From Octopus vulgaris (Eukaryota): a stretch of DNA of 64,000 bases. A program made the position numbers and the translations under genes. Positions 5,449-62,819 of the stretch are shown here, in pieces (positions within the stretch are counted from its first letter, which is position 1; every line of letters begins with the position of its first letter). A model generated the notes under the pieces. It ran no database searches. It was given only the letters and a program-made list of their open reading frames with translations, and was not told the DNA's origin. The DNA lies in NCBI GenBank assembly GCA_951406725.2, contig OX597814.1, positions 118,606,001 to 118,670,000 on the forward strand, read 5' to 3'.

Positions 5449-7742
5449 GAACAATATATTTTTAGAGACAAACGATTCCTCGGGAGAAAATACGAACATT
5501 AATAAAGATTAGCACCTTCGAGCTGTAACAATGATATAATTGCATATGTAGAACATGAAATGAACAATCGTAGAAACAGCAGGTTTTTGGTTTCGAGAAA
5601 AAGAAATAAGAAGCAATCAACCGGTGGTTGCCGGTCGATATATCAATGAAAATACATTCACTTGTATTTCCAACTGACACTATTCACTCGAGTTGTAATC
5701 CTTGAATTAGCAGGAAACTAAAAACTTGTTTGAATATCAAGGAAAAAAAAAAATTTCGTATTTACAATATTCTGAAAGTGAGATTGGAAGAATTCTTTTC
5801 CCATCAACAACTCTTCGCCCCGAGCTATTGTAGATATTTGGAATAATACAGGGTATTACCGAATTCTTAATCTATCTTAATACGTCATCCCTTCCAATGT
5901 CAGATGACATTTTATCTCTAATCCTATAATACAGCAAAAGCGTATTGCCATTCCTTTTAAAATTTGTCACACCTTCAAGAAATAATAGTGCAAGAAATGC
6001 TGAAAGTAGCAAAATATAATACTTATTTATAAATGTTTCTGTAAGGTAGAGACTCACAATTACGATCTTTCGAAAGACATTTGTGGACATATAAGCTATA
6101 ATTTAAATTTAAAAACGATTTTACACCCAAATTACATGGATTTCCTTTCGATAAAATCTCTCAGACACAATTCTTAATAGAAGCGAAGACTGAATAATCT
6201 GCTATTTGTATCACATATTGTATGCCTCAGTTCTGATAATGTTCACCGTAGAATGAACTGTAGAATTTGGTATTATAGCAAATTCACAATTTACTTAAAG
6301 AAAAGATAAAACGAAATACCCATTGCGACGGCTAGCAGAACCCTAAAGAAAATGTATTTAACACTACTTGGAGTTGTGTTCGACATAGTTGTATATCCTC
6401 TGGTGCTGCGCACAATAATGACAGGCGTCAACAAAAACAGAGCAGATTACAACAAATATTTAAGTAACCGATACTATATTATACCAACAAGGCACAGACC
6501 CATGTACAACTCCAAAAACCATAGATGTAATACCATAAGAATTTTTCCACTTTACGTCAAACAAGGAACTAACTGAAAACTCTGGCTCACTTAATAACAT
6601 TTTTAGCAACACTAACGTTCTTCACAAACTATCCTCATCCTGCAGAGAGACAGGGAGCTGAGCACAATGAAGATGTAGTCTAAAAGGCCAGGTTTGAGTG
6701 GGCTATAATGGATTACTGACTAGAAATATGGAATTGTAATGAAACAGTAAAATTTTTCTTAATATTAGGATCAGAAAAATGTCATAATCTCGTACAAAAG
6801 TGTAATATCGAAAACATTAACAAGAGAAAAGATAATGCATATAGCGTTTAAAAATTATTTAGAACCGGCGGTAAAAATATGCAAAGAAATATCATCAAGG
6901 TTTCAGGAAAATATTGCTTCCTCTTGTGACAAATATGATGACAAAAACAAGGGGAAGGGCCTGCTTTTTGTTTAAGATTTTAGTATTCCATTCTTTAGAA
7001 CATTTTTCATCGAATGATACACAGAATCGAGGTCATATATGCTATGTACACCAAGAAAAATGAGCGAAAACATTTAAATCTTGACATACTAAGGGGGTAA
7101 AATATTTTACTGCACTAGCAATGTGTTTAAGTCACCTGTATTTCTATGTTGTAACACAGACACAGTACAGCTCTGATTAACTGTACATAGTTGGAGGGCT
7201 TTCTATATTTAACATCTCAGTTTGGCTTCAGGCATAGAAATCAAAGATGAGAATATGAAATATTCATTGCAAGGTTCATCCTTAAACTAGAAATGTATTA
7301 CTTAAATTGGCAGGGATTTAGATAATGTAGCATGCCACACGGTCAAGAGGTGGTTGTCTTACTGAATGCTTGTACCGATAGATTTATCCGTAAAGGTGTG
7401 CTTGTTTATAATATATAACAGTCTCTTTACAATTATTTCTTTTCTGATATCTTCAGATGCACATTGGGTAAATGTCTATAACTAGAGTCTAATATGAACC
7501 AAAGAATGAGTTATATCTGAAAAACAAAAAAAAGAAGCTGGAATTTCCGCTCGAGTTCTTTAATCTCTTACTTCAAAAATCTAAGAAAAAGCCACCCTTT
7601 CCACACATACATGTGCATGTATATACTATATATTCATGCGTGTGTGCCTACAAATGGATATAAAATAACAGAGACAGATCAAAAAGACGGTTAGATTTAT
7701 TAAACATTCAGATAAACATATAGCGAGCTAGCTATCTATTTT

Positions 7743-7789
<47 letters not shown>

Positions 7790-7916
7790 TTCAGCAAAAT
7801 TTAGATTCAAATGAATATGGTACTTAAGTCAGAGGCACCAGAATTTTGTATGATATTATCCATATAAATCCATGGGGCAATAATAATCAAAATAAGCAAA
7901 AAATATATCTTCGGTA

Positions 7917-8005
7917 ATTTGGTACGATCGTTTCATGTTACTTCATTTTATTACACATTGTAAGTTTTACATCAGTTTTAAAATGTTGACCAATCTTCAG
8001 CCAAT
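7917..8005 (-). ncRNA. Hammerhead ribozyme motif with long stem II insert
   Basis: Minus strand ttgg-CTGAAGA-ttgg...aacat-GAAA-cgatcg-TA-ccaa. Stem III is the palindrome ACGATCGT. Confidence 0.65.
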
Positions 8006-8219
8006 TATAGAAGTCTTCCCTCAAACAAAACAATACATATATTTATTTCAATTTTCTTTTGCCCACATTATAAAGAGGGTAGATTAAAATTTTGATACTA
8101 TCATGTTCTTAACAATCAAATCAACCTCTCTCTCTGTATATCTACCCTCTTTGCAATGTTGGCAAAAGAAAATGGAAATAAGTATATCTATTTTCCGGTT
8201 GATGGAAGACTTCTATAAA

Positions 8220-8304
8220 TGGCTGAAGATTGTTTAACATTTTAAAACAGATGTAATCCTTACAAGATTTAATAAAATGAAGTAGCATGAAACAATCGTA
8301 CCAA
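8220..8304 (+). ncRNA. Hammerhead ribozyme motif (mirror copy)
   Basis: tgg-CTGAAGA(8223-8229)-ttgtt...agcat-GAAA(8289-8292)-caatcg-TA-cca. Confidence 0.6.
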
Positions 8305-10557
8305 ATTACCGAAGATATACTTGTTGCTTATTTTGATTATATATATATATGTGTGTGTGTGTGTGTATGTATTTGTGTGCATGTGTGTGTGTGTTTGTGT
8401 GCATAGATAAATAGATAAATACATACATTCATACATATATATGTGTGTGTGTAGAACTTAACATATTGTTTATTGTGGGTGTAGATATATTCAAATTGAT
8501 TGAAGACACGCATTTGATACGTGTTCTGAAAGAAGATTGATAATTTCTCAGAAGCTACTTACTACCAATCTTGCATTGTCATCATCCACCGACGTAATAA
8601 TACTGATTGTCTGCTTTCTTTATATAACTTGGCGATTTTAAATATTGCGTCAGACACCGCTTTATTTGGCCGAATGCCCCGGATTTCTTAAATGGAATAC
8701 TGCAACTCATTAGTGTTAAATCATTGGAAGTCTTCTGTAAGTAATAACTGATTCTATTTTCCGGTTTAATAGACTCAAATTACATAGAGTTATAATTTCT
8801 TCTGCATTTGTACAAGCAGAATATTCAATGTGATTTCCAGTTGAAGACATAGTTTTCTTATATAACAAAATGTTACATCCAAATTTACAACAACACGCGC
8901 ACGTTGGTGGTAAAATCTTGCTCTTCTTCTGGTATCCAAGACTTTATCGTTTCGAAAAAGAATTGATGACAAGGAAAACCACAAAGGTTAACAGAGCACA
9001 GAAATAATTTAATTGGGAGTAAAGGTTATGTTCAATTCACTTGTTTAGAGTTCATACAAATCTTATTCATGTACTTCAACGTCACACCGTAATCGGATAT
9101 ATTTCCTACATCATAGGACTTCAATAAGATATCCCTAAGTAAATTTAGTAATAACCAAGATTAACATTGGAAGGTCACATAATTAGGCTATGAGAAAAAA
9201 GGCCATTCTAAAACAGTATACAAATGTACACCACCAGAAGGACAAAGAAGAGGATAAAGCCGAAAAGCGCATTTATGATGAACATTCATGATGGGGATGA
9301 GAGAGGTGAATTTCATGTGGCCGGATGGATTTACCTGATAGCGGCATATGTGCGCGAGATTACAGGAGGGCCTGATACTCGTATCTGTCGTTGATTATCT
9401 CAGAAATATCACCAGCGTATTTATTTCAACAATTCATGCTTGATTCTTTGATACGCAATTTTCAATGTAGCCTTTTGTCAGTTTCAGCTGACAAGAAACA
9501 ATCTCCGTGATAAAGGTCGTATGAGAGCGTATGAGAGCGTATCTTAACCCCCACACTGCGAAGGTTAAAACATTGTACACTTCTGGTTTAACTTCAAGGA
9601 AGAAACAGCGCTTCTGTTCAATGAAAATGATAAGATTATAGCCAACACATAGTATTATGATTTTAACTAACCAAAAAAAAAAAAAATGCTTTGTATCAAT
9701 CTTAATGGTTTGGCGTAACGCTGGAAATAAAAAGAAAACCATCACTGTTATTTTCACCAGTAGTTAATTACACAATATACATCAGCTACAGCTAAGGGAA
9801 CTGTATCTTCTAAAGTAATCAGCTTTGAGAAACAAACTTAATTGCGATTTATACTGTTTGGGCACTACATTGTGTTATGAAATATACTGAATTGATACGA
9901 GACGAAATAAAGTAAGATTTCTCACAGAAAACAAGTTAATTATGATATCAGTACATTTGAATAATACTCAATGGTGTATCATTATAACATTAATTGTTAA
10001 CTCTTGCGGCTAGCATGATCAATTAAACAAGTTTTCTTTGATATCGACGTTCATAGAATTCCATTCATAAATTTTGATTCAACTCTATTCTCTATCAATT
10101 TACGCTGAGACACTTTATTTAATTGTCGAAATTATAGATAGGAAATTAATCTACAAATAGGTTCATTTAAAATTATCTGCGTAAGTTGTACAAAAATTCC
10201 CAAAGTAAACATTATATAACGGGTAAAGTATTTCATGATGTAATCTACTCGAAATCACATCAAATCATACATTTTCATACAGAAACTATTTATATAGTAA
10301 CATTCAACATGATCTCAAGAGTCGATATACGTAGGTATATAACTCTATTCTGAGAGGAAGTAATTACTTCGAAGTGAATACTTTGGATATAGGTCACTAC
10401 ACTTAGACATAAACGTCGATAAGTGCGTTCATTCTCTGTTAGGTTCCTGATACCGTATTCAGTACCATGCAATGTTGATCGTTGCATATTTCTTTATTTT
10501 TTTGTTGCATAACAAGCAGTAAAGACGCATAGATTTTCATTTTCGAGGCAGACGCGC

Positions 10558-18057: not shown

Positions 18058-18378
18058 CTTTAGGCGAGCAAATCGACCCCAGGACTTATTCTTTGGAAGC
18101 CTAGTACTTATTCTATCGGTTCTTTTGCCGAACCGCTAAGTTACGGCGACAAAAACATACAACCATCGGTTGTCAAGCGATGTTGGGGAGGGGGGAAAAC
18201 ACAGACACACAAACATATATGCATACATATATATACATATATATATATATATACATATATACGTCGGGCTTCTTTCGGTTTCCGTCTACCATATCTAATC
18301 ACAAGGCTTTGGTCGACCCAACGCTATAGTAGAAGACACCTCCCCAAGGTGCCACGCAGTGGAAATGAACGCAGAACT
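18058..18378 (-). mobile_element. SINE C with internal microsatellite
   Basis: GAGCAAATCGACCCCAGGACTTATTC...(CA/TA)n...CGTCGGGCTTCTTTC...CCCAAGGTGCCACGCAGTGG. Confidence 0.85.
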
Positions 18379-19035: not shown

Positions 19036-19278
19036 CTCTTTTATTTGTTTCAGGTATTTGACTGCGGCCATGTTGGAGCACCGCCTTTAGTTGAGAAAAT
19101 CGACCCTAGGACTTATTATTTGTAAGCCTAGTATTTATTCTATCACCCCTTTTGCTGAATCGCTAAGTTACGGGGACGTAAACACACCAACATCCATTGT
19201 CAAGCAACGGGTGGGGGGGACAAACACAGACACACATACATACACACACATACCTATATATATATATACATATATATA
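19036..19278 (-). mobile_element. SINE C 3' part
   Basis: TTTGTTTCAG...GACTGCGGCCATGTTGGAGCACCGCC... Confidence 0.8.
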
Positions 19279-19494
19279 TTTTGTGAAATAGAAAAATGAA
19301 TAATCTTGTTGCAGATTAATCAAAAGTTTAACCGATACCTTGGTAACAAAAATCACAGCAGAAGACAGCACGGTTGGAGGTACAACCATATGGTGTTGCA
19401 ACCATGCGTTTGTGCGGATAATTGAATTTTAATATTATTAGTGTATTGAAGAAATGGAGTTGAACGAAGATTGAACGGAAATCGTTTTATTGCA

Positions 19495-19574
19495 TTCTAC
19501 ACGTGTTTCGAAAGCCACAATTTACCAAATTCCGATTGAATAAGGAGACCATATTGCGTCTTTCTCTTCAGGAA
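19495..19574 (-). ncRNA. Hammerhead ribozyme (left arm)
   Basis: Mirror of 19779-19858; core intact. Confidence 0.7.
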
Positions 19575-19778
19575 GAAATAGGAAATCCGTTGGCAAAAAC
19601 AAAAACAGAACAGAGGCGCAGCAAAACAAATCGAACGAGGCTCCTAAGAGCCCATGGCCAAACTGTTTATCAATGTATGTTGATAAACAGTTTGGCCATG
19701 GGCTCTTAGGAGCCTCGTTCGATTTGTTTTGCTCCGCCTCTGTTCTGTTTTTGTTTTTTCCAACGGATTTCCTATTTC

Positions 19779-19858
19779 TTCCTGAAGAGAAAGACACAAT
19801 ATGGTCTCTTTATTCAATCGGAATTTGGTAAATTCTGGCTTTCGAAACACGTGTAGAA
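19779..19858 (+). ncRNA. Hammerhead ribozyme (right arm)
   Basis: ttc-CTGAAGA(19782-88)-gaaag...ctttc-GAAA(19844-47)-cacgtg-TA-gaa. Palindromic stem III ACACGTGT; AATAAA follows at 19862. Confidence 0.72.
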
Positions 19859-19913
19859 TGCAATAAAACGATTTCCGTTCAATCTTCGTTCAACTCCATT
19901 TCTTCAATTCACT

Positions 19914-19985
<72 letters not shown>

Positions 19986-20044
19986 AAAAAATGAAGTTCG
20001 AAAATGCTGCTGTATTATACAATTTTTTTATTTTTATATATACA

Positions 20045-35754: not shown

Positions 35755-35975
35755 TAAAGTTAATCCAAACATGAAAACACCAAGAGAAAACACAAAAACG
35801 CGAGGACGTGGAACAAATATAGTATTATTGAACGCTCAGGAAGAAAGGGAAGAAGAAGGGTTTTACGTTTCGAGCGGAGCTCTTCGTCAGAAACATAGGA
35901 AAAGGAAAGATCCAGAGAAGGGAAGACGAAGGAAAAATAATCGACAACGGTACACACGCGGTCACGCCAAATGAA
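35755..35975 (-). mobile_element. Short HHR-bearing repeat (family H)
   Basis: Shares CCACGTCCTCGCGTT and the HHR with 53340-53563; 3' end at (TA)n. Confidence 0.7.
35860..35894 (-). ncRNA. Minimal hammerhead ribozyme
   Basis: Minus strand gttt-CTGACGA-a-gagc tcc gctc-GAAA-cg-TA-aaac. Stems I and II are 4 bp each, stem III is the ACGT palindrome, GUA site. Confidence 0.75.
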
Positions 35976-42289: not shown

Positions 42290-42668
<379 letters not shown>

Positions 42669-49214: not shown

Positions 49215-50730
49215 GAAATAGTGAAGATAAACCCAACTATAGAAATAAACTCGATAGTTATAACAACAACTTCACACACACCTTACAAACAATGCGGGTA
49301 GTTTCTATACCAGACATAGAAATACTAACAATAAACGTAATAGTTATAAGATCTGGCTAGTAATCCGTTTCGCCATGCACCTCAAAACCAATATAATTCT
49401 CTCGCTAATGAAACTAACACATAAACATTTATACATAGATAATAAATATGCAGCAATATTTAAGAATAAAATTAGAGTAGGCCACAGCTACCGTCATCGC
49501 CTCGCTTAATAATAAAAAAAATGGACACTATGAAGCTAGGAAAATTAGGAACAATGAATCTAACAACCAAACAGATTAATAGAACAAAACCCACCACTAA
49601 TGAAGCGCATCTTAGTAACACAGAGAAAGACCCGAGAAGTAATAGCCCCTACAACTCAACACGAATACAGATATACCTAATAATTTATGTGGCATCAGGG
49701 ATAGAATTAAGTGCCAATTCTCTAATAGATGTAAGTCTAAAATCGTAGTTCATCAATGTGACGTACACAGAAATAGCCGAATAAAATGCTATATAAGATC
49801 CACGAAAAACTAAATGATACTTAGGTACAATGAACACCAATCTAGCTTCAGAAATAGGCGTAAGGCAAATTCAACAGGGCTTAGTATCTGTATCTGGAAG
49901 CTTAAGGACAAAAAAAAACAGAATATAGATTAGAAAGGTTCATACTCGCAAAAACAACTTCTTACACCTCTACCAATATGTTTAACCGAACGCCTGGAAA
50001 TTCTAACGGCTAAACCACCTCTTCTTAATACATATAGACCTCATTGTCTTTTACGAAATATCGGTAAACCTGCTTGACCCTGTACAAATCCTACGCTAGC
50101 ATCTTCATCTAAATAATACCATTAATCCGGGAACCACTTAAACTACTTACGCGCAAACATTCACCTCCCAAATCTCACTCGCTTTACACACCCCATATTA
50201 AATTATATTACACCTACACAGGGCTTCCTCCTTTATTACGAACTTCCTACAACTTGAAGTCCAACACATAAATTCCTTGCTCACCCCGGACTGAGAAAAT
50301 CCGGATAGAGTTATCCTCCTTTTCACCATGAGTTAACGTTAACCCCATTTCTTTACACCGCCGGTGGAAAATCTAGCCAGAATAAATACGTGGATAATAT
50401 GCGCTTTCTTAAACTAGGGACTACAGTTCAAAATAACCTCAATCATACTCCCACTTCGCAGAAGATTTATCAACTAACAAATCTTCTATAACGTAAGACT
50501 CACCATTCTTTGTCTGTGTTCTCGTTACCAATGTATCGCTATGTCTCTCGCTATTCTTACCCTTCCATATGACTCTGCATTTTGATGATATCTACCAGCA
50601 CAACTGGTAAACAGAAACGATCGTAAATGTAATATTACTACCACTTTTCTCTATGAATTAATTAAATTATTGGCTTACTAGCGCAAACGACAAATTCTTC
50701 TTGTTATTTTTCCTCCATATGCTTCTTTCG
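49215..50730 (+). mobile_element. 5'-truncated Penelope-like element: linker, GIY-YIG endonuclease remnant and HHR pseudo-LTR
   Basis: KIWLVIRFAMHLKTNI...KH (49348); KCQFSNRCKSKIVVHQCDV...CYIRST...RYNEHQSSFR...NSTGLSICIWKLKD; PICLTERLEIL...LLN (to ~50030). HHR at 50577; ends at (TA)n. Confidence 0.8.
50577..50630 (+). ncRNA. Hammerhead ribozyme in PLE 3' region
   Basis: gcatt-TTGATGA-tatctaccag cacaa ctggtaaaca-GAAA-cgatcg-TA-aatgt. 5 bp stem I, long stem II, ACGATCGT stem III, C3 changed to U. Confidence 0.72.
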
Positions 50731-61755: not shown

Positions 61756-62433
61756 TTTGTGTGTGTCTAGTGTAACATATTTGTATATGTACGTATATTT
61801 CTTCTAAGTTCGGGAAAGAATACTAATAGACAAATGTGAAAACACTTAATACGATCTTAAATAATTCATGACAATATCTCTAAAACTATATTCTCTTTTG
61901 TTTTTCCCTTCAATTCTTTCAGCTTCATGTAATTTAAAGTTCGCCATATTCATCGTATAACTTTCCAAAACATATTGCGTTACCTTCCTTTCTCTAAATT
62001 CAATCTGCCTTCTTGGTATTTTGGTAAAGGCTAACTATCTACAATTCCTCTAATATTTTTGTCTCAACGTATATATTTTTATCATTATATTTATATGTAT
62101 TATTCATGTATCTTATCAAATGCAAATTATAGCGAAAAACTAATTTCTGTTATGGAAACTTAAATTTTCTCAGCTCATATATGAATAATCTCACACCGAG
62201 TCATACACAAATTTAGAATATCTTTACATTTATATATAAATGGCTCCTTCTTTCAACCTATCACGTATACTAACCGATATTTATGTTATATTAAGTTTTT
62301 AATATTGCATTTAGTTTTCTCTGCATATAATCATCTCTCTCTCTCCCCACCCTTTATTTCGCTCTACACACCCACACATATGTATATAAGTGTGTATTTA
62401 TATGCGCATGCTGCATATAATTTAATGGTGTGA

Positions 62434-62478
<45 letters not shown>

Positions 62479-62819
62479 CACAGTCATGCATACAATTATA
62501 TGCAGCATACGCATATAAATACACATTTATATGCATATGTGTGGGTGTGTAGAGCAAAATAAAGGGTGGTAGAGAGTGAGAAGGGTGATTATATGCAGAG
62601 AAAACTAAATGCAATATTAACAACTTATATATATATATTTAGATATGTATATACACAGATATTTATGTACACAGAAATGATAATATATATAGACTCATAA
62701 TCATTGAAATTTATTTACATCTAAAATTATTCATGCAAAATATTTATTAATTGTTATCATGTGGATATTTAATATCTATTAGACATGCCCTTTGCATATT
62801 ACCGATCAAATGACAAATA

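What the first reader, a model, noticed from the sequence alone, without database searches (positions are those of the whole stretch)
19432..19921. Young 490 bp near-perfect palindrome carrying two intact hammerheads
Seen: 242 bp arms about 97% identical with a 6 nt spacer. Each arm reads outward as HHR (gaaag/ctttc stem II, ACACGTGT stem III, GUA), then AATAAA. The right arm ends flush on (TA)n; the left has a ~150 bp extension to another TA tract. Inference: formed by fold-back (self-primed) synthesis during PLE-type reverse transcription. Any read-through RNA is a 240 bp dsRNA that masks its own ribozyme and is a likely ADAR/Dicer substrate, and the DNA could extrude a cruciform.
Basis: partly seen in the sequence, partly recalled or inferred. 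Interest (0 to 1): 0.75.

Follow-up and report, generated by a model that had tools for sequence, protein, structure and literature searches.

The report
Head-to-head Penelope retrotransposon stub
The palindrome is real but ordinary: it is one of many short insertions of an abundant Penelope-like jumping gene, two cut-off copies of its tail end joined head to head in a TA repeat, each carrying a predicted self-cutting RNA motif, and most likely made by priming from both ends of the target DNA rather than by a simple fold-back.

Summary
Confirmed: 242-bp arms, 6 mismatches, 6-nt spacer, one hammerhead core per strand. The palindrome is a 5'-truncated insertion of a Penelope-like element (PLE) with about 1,400 candidate copies, a 3.62-kb unit and an intact 895-aa RT + C-terminal GIY-YIG ORF of Hydra type. 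In 79 of 82 head-to-head junctions one arm ends at a fixed short site and the other about 157 nt further on (tail); centres vary, either arm can be longer, and 7 tail arms do not overlap the other arm. This, and a two-site haplotype that differs between the window's inner arms, argues against simple fold-back and for priming from both target ends, mostly on one source. Near-symmetric centres are in excess (19 of 79 against 8.2). The hammerhead has a long, covarying helix II; cleavage, transcription, editing and siRNA are unshown. The layout, the one-sided tail and the self-priming idea are in print (PMC3846280, PMC8557442), and this scan noted the same layout at other loci of this genome. New member of a known kind.

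The parts
19256..19279 (.). Left (TA)n target tract, at the end of a common interspersed repeat
   Evidence: sequence; similar repeat at 18058-18252 (D5)
19280..19431 (-). PLE tail: the stretch between the short and the long family end (157 nt apart in reference L084); in tandem units it lies just upstream of the ORF start
   Evidence: same two ends 156 nt apart in a 77%-identical sister family
19432..19683 (-). Left arm: 5'-truncated 3' end (pLTR) of the element, long-end copy; it runs through the 6-nt spacer and the 4-nt microhomology; carries haplotype B at 19619 and 19594
19495..19574 (-). Type I hammerhead motif with long helix II (left arm)
19670..19683 (.). Head-to-head junction: 4-nt microhomology (19680-19683) whose complement lies at 19670-19673 around a 6-nt loop; unique in the assembly
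19680..19921 (+). Right arm: 5'-truncated pLTR copy ending at the short family end; haplotype A
19779..19858 (+). Type I hammerhead motif (right arm); predicted cut after 19855; helix II weakened by a private change at 19835
19862..19867 (+). AATAAA just 3' of the predicted cut (mirror at 19486-19491); use as poly(A) signal untested
   Evidence: sequence; overlaps the extended helix I
19918..19981 (.). Right (TA)32 target tract; target duplication cannot be read

Best explanation
The palindrome is a single short insertion of an abundant Penelope-like retrotransposon, two 5'-truncated copies of its 3' end joined head to head inside a TA repeat, likely made when both ends of the cut target primed reverse transcription at two fixed sites of the element's RNA. 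Shown: parent element, two fixed ends, one of each per insertion, variable centres, arms usually from one source. Inferred steps: the GIY-YIG domain cuts both strands of (TA)n; one 3' end primes at the long (tail) site, the other at the short site 157 nt upstream, on RNA not cut at the hammerhead; both cDNAs stop early, here at almost the same place; their 3' ends are joined through a 4-nt microhomology and the gaps are filled. The hammerhead belongs to the pLTR, likely works as a dimer in tandem transcripts, and would be masked in any read-through RNA of this locus. No host function is indicated.
For: Parent: 3.62-kb tandem units (L076/L077) and 899-residue open frames in 5 of 20 fetched loci, 908 in a sixth; P0002 has FDIASFYPS, YRDD, VYQ..YVG, CxxC, CxH; its model (pLDDT 79.9) matches telomerase RTs at ranks 1-7. 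Ends: 79 long+short, 2 long+long, 1 unresolved, 0 short+short of 82 junctions. Polarity: short arm longer in 33, long arm in 38, within 5 nt in 8; 7 tail-only arms. Junctions by BLAST ends: 48 overlap, 10 blunt, 21 insert. One source: arms differ 0.66% within and 2.33% between insertions; a near 50:50 marker agrees in 58 of 59 (1 gap); rare haplotype B in both arms in 8 of 9 loci other than the window. Uncut template: 148 of 164 arms cross the hammerhead cut, 1 of 164 starts within 3 nt of it. In vitro precedent: an anole PLE cuts and extends both strands, starts at two internal RNA sites that match the tail ends, is predicted dimeric and uses uncut RNA (PMC11167929, parts 1-2 of 4 read).
Against: Near-symmetric centres are more frequent than independent truncation gives (19 of 79 within 20 nt against 8.2, stratified permutation p about 1e-4), so the two stops are coupled in a part of the insertions; fold-back joining would also give this. 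The window's arms share a rare variant (5 exact hits in the genome) yet differ at a segregating haplotype, which needs two templates or later gene conversion. Loci were picked by similarity searches (40 scored per search), ends come from BLAST (error up to about 20 nt), 4 rows were relabelled and 2 dropped by hand. No intermediate, transcript or long read was seen.
Confidence: 0.75

Rival explanations
1. Twin priming sets both ends, but the centre of symmetric insertions such as this one forms by fold-back: one cDNA snaps back on a 4-bp stem, copies itself, and then transfers to the second cDNA.
For: 4-nt microhomology around a 6-nt loop at this centre; 2-4 nt microhomology at 9 of 19 near-symmetric centres; excess of symmetric centres; rare variant shared by both arms; self-priming proposed for PLE palindromes in PMC3846280 (passages).
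Against: The innermost two mismatches match a family haplotype and should be the first bases copied; 2 of 19 symmetric centres are blunt and about 5 carry inserts; microhomology is equally expected from end joining of two cDNAs.
Confidence: 0.17
2. Pure fold-back of one cDNA: the second arm is a copy of the first.
For: Geometry at this locus allows it (long arm holds the loop); arms are near-identical.
Against: Does not explain the fixed short end, the 33 of 79 insertions where the short-ended arm is longer, or the 7 non-overlapping tail arms; inner haplotype mismatch.
Confidence: 0.04
3. Assembly or long-read fold-back artefact.
For: Exact junction not bridged in contigs of 4 runs.
Against: 6 arm mismatches, two of them a real haplotype; unequal ends at family-fixed sites; unique flanks on both sides; 15 listed joints in short-read contigs of runs X1, X2, X4 that read as other head-to-head junctions.
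Confidence: 0.02
4. A selected regulatory device (dsRNA source or ribozyme switch) of the host.
For: A 240-bp hairpin is predicted if transcribed.
Against: Hundreds of equivalent loci; private changes accumulate in both arms; no locus-specific RNA evidence; no host exon was identified nearby (ORF listing only).
Confidence: 0.02

Closest known systems
Inverted 5'-truncated insertions of EN+ Penelope-like elements (PMC3846280 passages; PMC8557442 passages and Fig. 2 legend)
   Same: Head-to-head inverted pLTRs, palindrome at the junction, tail on one end only, partial tandems, AT-rich or (TA)n targets.
   Different: Tail is about 157 nt, against 30-40 bp in the papers; here the one-short-one-long rule, arm identity and centre symmetry are counted on 79-82 junctions.
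Hydra clade of PLEs, including Hydra-1_Obim (PMC8557442 section 11 and supplement S1/S2)
   Same: RT then C-terminal GIY-YIG, DKT, RW motif, no CCHH, CxxC and CxH at the EN end, (TA)n targets, hammerhead near the 3' end.
   Different: A different family: the motifs searched from this element are absent from the supplement. Unit 3.6 kb (clade usually <3 kb); CxCX5C linker missing and replaced by an S/N-rich stretch; hammerhead has 55 nt between core halves against short helix II loops in File S2.
PLE pLTR hammerheads (PMC4209133 passages)
   Same: Type I, short helix I, G-C at the base of helix II, short palindromic helix III that needs a dimer, low activity expected for a monomer.
   Different: Helix II of about 12 bp plus a 31-nt cap; not found by Rfam models.
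PAc Poseidon element in vitro (PMC11167929, parts 1-2 of 4)
   Same: Two RT start sites that define the tail, cleavage of both strands at AT-rich DNA, uncut RNA as template.
   Different: Other clade; the parts read do not explain inverted arms.
L1 twin priming (recalled, not read)
   Same: Second target strand primes internally and gives a 5' inversion with microhomology.
   Different: There the internal site varies and the arms do not overlap; here it is fixed and the arms usually overlap.
Non-LTR retrozymes (10.64898/2026.07.22.740005, part 1 of 5)
   Same: Type I hammerhead repeats tied to PLEs.
   Different: Those are non-coding tandem arrays; this is a fragment of a coding element and not tandem.

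Membership tests
EN+ Penelope-like element | Single ORF with telomerase-related RT | tested here: met
   895-aa ORF; Foldseek ranks 1-7 are TERTs. Pfam alone gave no hit for P0002; RVT_1 in 1 of 65 relatives.
EN+ Penelope-like element | GIY-YIG endonuclease | tested here: met
   VYQ..YVG at 777-793 aligned with relatives; PF01541 in 3 of 65 relatives.
EN+ Penelope-like element | pLTR tandems, inverted 5'-truncated copy, one-sided tail | tested here: met
EN+ Penelope-like element | Hammerhead in the pLTR | tested here: met
   Core in 123 hits among loci then held (loci overlap); covariation across 4 related families.
Hydra clade | C-terminal EN without CCHH; CxxC and CxH around conserved E and N | tested here: met
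   CNLC at 855, CPH at 883, no CX2-5CxxC.
Hydra clade | DKT and RWK motifs | tested here: inconclusive
   DKT at 122 met; RWL instead of RWK at 37; RWK in 39 and DKT in 50 of 65 aligned proteins.
Hydra clade | CxCX5C linker | tested here: not met
   Absent in P0002; a CxCx3-7C pattern is in 62 of 65 aligned proteins. Likely a secondary loss; filed as Hydra-related, not as a typical member.
Hydra clade | Length under 3 kb | tested here: not met
   Unit 3,624 bp; two disordered low-complexity stretches, 495-557 and 633-765.
Hydra clade | (TA)n insertion | tested here: met
Hydra clade | Placement in an RT tree with reference Hydra proteins | not tested
   Reference sequences were seen only in a paper's supplement and were not put into a tree.
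Type I hammerhead ribozyme | CUGANGA, GAAA and UH core; three helices | tested here: met
   93.4% of cells paired, 7 of 19 pairs change on both sides, slid controls 32-51% (12 related sequences, structure drawn by me). Helix I only 3 bp in a common register.
Type I hammerhead ribozyme | Self-cleavage | not testable with these tools
   No raw RNA reads; only contigs.
Non-LTR retrozyme | Non-coding tandem units each with a hammerhead | tested here: not met
   Inverted, not tandem; parent is coding.
MITE / foldback DNA transposon | Fixed-length element with equal terminal inverted repeats | tested here: not met
   Unequal ends, variable centres and lengths.

The most novel reading that the evidence does not exclude
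This family shows that PLE inversions come from a two-headed priming event with two hard-wired RNA start sites 157 nt apart, mostly on one template that is copied twice by strand displacement, with both enzymes often stopping at the same RNA break and now and then using two different RNAs; and it targets (TA)n without the linker zinc finger that was proposed to do the targeting.
Probability: 0.35. Interest if true: 0.5.

Novelty: new member of a known kind. Interest (0 to 1): 0.25.

Why it matters
The locus itself matters little: it is one of hundreds of such stubs. The family is useful because it is recent, abundant and has intact ORFs, so the open question of how PLEs make inverted ends can be tested by counting (one short and one long end, same-source arms, coupled stops) and in vitro. 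Two smaller points could interest specialists: long-helix-II hammerheads that Rfam misses, and (TA)n targeting without the CxCX5C linker.

Tried and rejected
Rfam: no hammerhead hit at gathering score or at E<=10 over 19200-20000; the miRNA matches are hairpin artefacts below cut-off. Pfam: nothing for P0001 or P0002; PDB by sequence: 3 insignificant hits. Public runs: only contigs; family sequence lies in runs guessed to be RNA, but nothing is locus-specific, and no listed contig bridges the centre in X1, X3, X9, X15; this shows neither absence nor expression. The A>G cells are family alleles in DNA runs, not editing. Idea that the left arm belongs to a separate subfamily: the 19444 variant is unique in the genome, the 19557 variant has 10 exact hits; only the 19619/19594 pair is a clear haplotype. 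Idea that cDNAs run off at the hammerhead cut: 1 of 164 arms. MITE and retrozyme readings rejected (membership table). Rows handled by hand before the 82-junction count: 84 rows, 2 duplicates dropped (L039, L136), 4 ends relabelled (L136, L029, L073, L109); loci L143-L172 were not used for junctions; 31 single-arm rows (tandem units, edge-cut loci, apparent simple insertions, 4 with 9-14 nt inverted stubs) were not counted. About 3 of the 8 'inserts' are artefacts of SNPs against the reference panel. Literature: no paper applying twin priming to PLE inversions came up (open library only; listings only); ADAR search seen as listing only. Sequence look-up in earlier findings gave nothing.

Full report
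Observation. The inverted repeat is as described: arms 19432-19673 and 19680-19921, 242 nt, 6 mismatches, spacer of 6 nt. The right arm ends on (TA)32; the left runs about 150 nt further to a TA tract. Each arm read outward holds a type I hammerhead core followed by AATAAA. Rfam does not detect it. The window holds no other copy of the arm.

Family. A search of the own genome (2.8 Gb, 227 contigs) gave 1,408 candidates for the arm, 40 scored, 47 matches at 95-100%, and 1,177 candidates for the tail. Walking upstream led to an RT frame, then to tandem units of 3,624 bp and 899-residue open frames in 5 of 20 fetched loci, 908 in a sixth. P0002 (895 aa, L086) has RT motifs, a C-terminal VYQ..YVG, DKT, CxxC and CxH. 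It has 109 relatives at E<=1e-10, 30-42% identical; an AlphaFold model on 65 sequences (pLDDT 79.9) matches telomerase RTs at ranks 1-7. These marks fit the Hydra clade of PLEs (PMC8557442 section 11; Hydra-1_Obim seen in the supplement), but the family is a different one, is longer than the clade's usual 3 kb and lacks the CxCX5C linker present as a pattern in 62 of 65 aligned proteins. The host is likely an octopus (inferred from these relatives and from earlier notes). The palindrome is the last 240-400 nt of this element, twice.

Architecture of insertions. From loci L001-L142, 82 distinct head-to-head junctions remained after dropping 2 duplicate rows and relabelling 4 ends by hand: 79 join a short-end arm to a long-end arm, 2 are long+long, 1 is unresolved, none is short+short. 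The two ends are 157 nt apart in the unit, the long end just upstream of the next ORF start. A 77%-identical sister family has the same two ends 156 nt apart. Centres lie anywhere from the tail to the ORF start. The short-ended arm reaches further 5' in 33 of 79, the long-ended in 38, within 5 nt in 8; in 7 the tail arm shares nothing with the other arm. Junctions show overlap in 48, are blunt in 10 and have extra letters in 21 (BLAST ends). Contigs from other runs hold 15 listed joints that read as further head-to-head junctions with variable centres, so the layout is not a long-read artefact; the window's own junction is unique in the assembly and was not bridged in 4 runs.

Mechanism. One cDNA folding back cannot supply a tail it does not contain, nor stop at a fixed short site. 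Two priming events, one from each end of the cut (TA)n target, at two fixed RNA sites, explain all classes; this is inferred, and agrees with the in vitro behaviour of an anole PLE (two start sites matching the tail, both strands cut, uncut RNA used; PMC11167929 parts 1-2). Both arms usually come from one source: 0.66% divergence within against 2.33% between insertions, a near 50:50 marker concordant in 58 of 59, and a rare haplotype (61 exact hits) in both arms in 8 of 9 informative loci other than the window. 148 of 164 arms cross the hammerhead cut and 1 starts within 3 nt of it, so the template is likely uncut. Against fully independent stops: 19 of 79 centres are symmetric within 20 nt against 8.2 expected (p about 1e-4, permuted within search sets; the window is one of the 19). 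Either both enzymes run off the same RNA break, or fold-back does the joining. Of the 19, 9 have 2-4 nt microhomology, 2 are blunt and about 5 have true inserts. At this locus the centre has a 4-nt microhomology around a 6-nt loop, which allows fold-back, but the two innermost mismatches (19619/19734 and 19594/19759) are exactly the segregating haplotype, B on the left and A on the right, while both arms share a rare outer variant (19876 and its mirror; 5 exact hits in the genome). That needs two templates or later gene conversion and is not what copying from the fold gives. L005 is the only other discordant locus seen.

Hammerhead. Core positions are 97-100% conserved among about 110-130 family arms (overlapping loci not fully removed). 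Across 12 natural sequences from four related families, helix II (12 bp, 31-nt cap), helix III (palindrome kept through a CG to TA change) and a 3-bp helix I are 93.4% paired with 7 of 19 pairs changing on both sides; slid controls reach 32-51% (related sequences, structure drawn by me). The short palindromic helix III is the dimer-dependent form described for metazoan PLEs, with little or no monomer activity (PMC4209133 passages). The two motifs here are on opposite strands, so no transcript holds the tandem pair; in a read-through RNA the antisense arm is made first and the full hairpin is far more stable. Cleavage, transcription, editing, siRNA and cruciform extrusion are untested.

Comparison with what is known. 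Head-to-head inverted pLTRs with palindromic junctions, a one-sided tail and a self-priming hypothesis are stated in PMC3846280 (passages); PMC8557442 gives the same layout for several clades and lists a Hydra family with an inverted 5' copy. Earlier agents of this scan reported the same layout, the short/long rule and long helix II at other loci of this genome; I looked after forming my reading, and these notes are not independent evidence. I found no paper applying twin priming to PLE inversions; subscription papers are not in that library, and the bioRxiv supplement was not seen.

Verdict. Real, explained, and a new member of a known kind. Interest 0.25; the family-level counts give a handle on an open mechanism and carry the small upside.

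Noticed in passing
window 7883-8340: Older palindrome (82% arms) ending on a TA tract, with a long-helix-II hammerhead-like motif at about 8223 (+); likely a decayed stub of another PLE family.
   Followed up: partly
window 62287-62633 and 42294-42662: Two more palindromes (89% and 76%); the first has a (TA)n centre, the second lies between TA tracts; no hammerhead seen by eye.
   Followed up: no
window 49703-50029 (+): Fragment 29% identical to the endonuclease part of P0002: another Hydra-type PLE remnant.
   Followed up: no
window about 35850-35900 (-): Compact hammerhead-like motif with short helix II in a common repeat.
   Followed up: no
L086:1900-2110 and 6220-6400; L025, L027, L018, L009 flanks: Several insertions sit in or beside other palindromic repeats; in L086 the two flanks are inverted copies of each other around the TA target.
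   Followed up: no
P0002 residues 495-557 and 633-765: Two disordered low-complexity inserts (one 133 aa, S/N-rich) in an otherwise intact ORF, replacing the CxCX5C linker; recalls the N-rich inserts of rotifer Penelopes.
   Followed up: partly
L076 (tandem unit), short and long end: Both ends follow a similar pyrimidine-rich word ending in TTCAC and then an AT-rich run; a candidate start-site motif, not tested against chance.
   Followed up: no
L012, L027, L033, L049, L054, L074, L179, L188: Other repeats in this genome carry hammerhead cores with 53-107 nt between the core halves and palindromic helix III; long helix II seems common here.
   Followed up: partly
L127-L129, L141 (C7:58.75-58.95 Mb, C128): The same junction occurs at four places, pointing to segmental duplication after insertion or an unplaced haplotig.
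   Followed up: no
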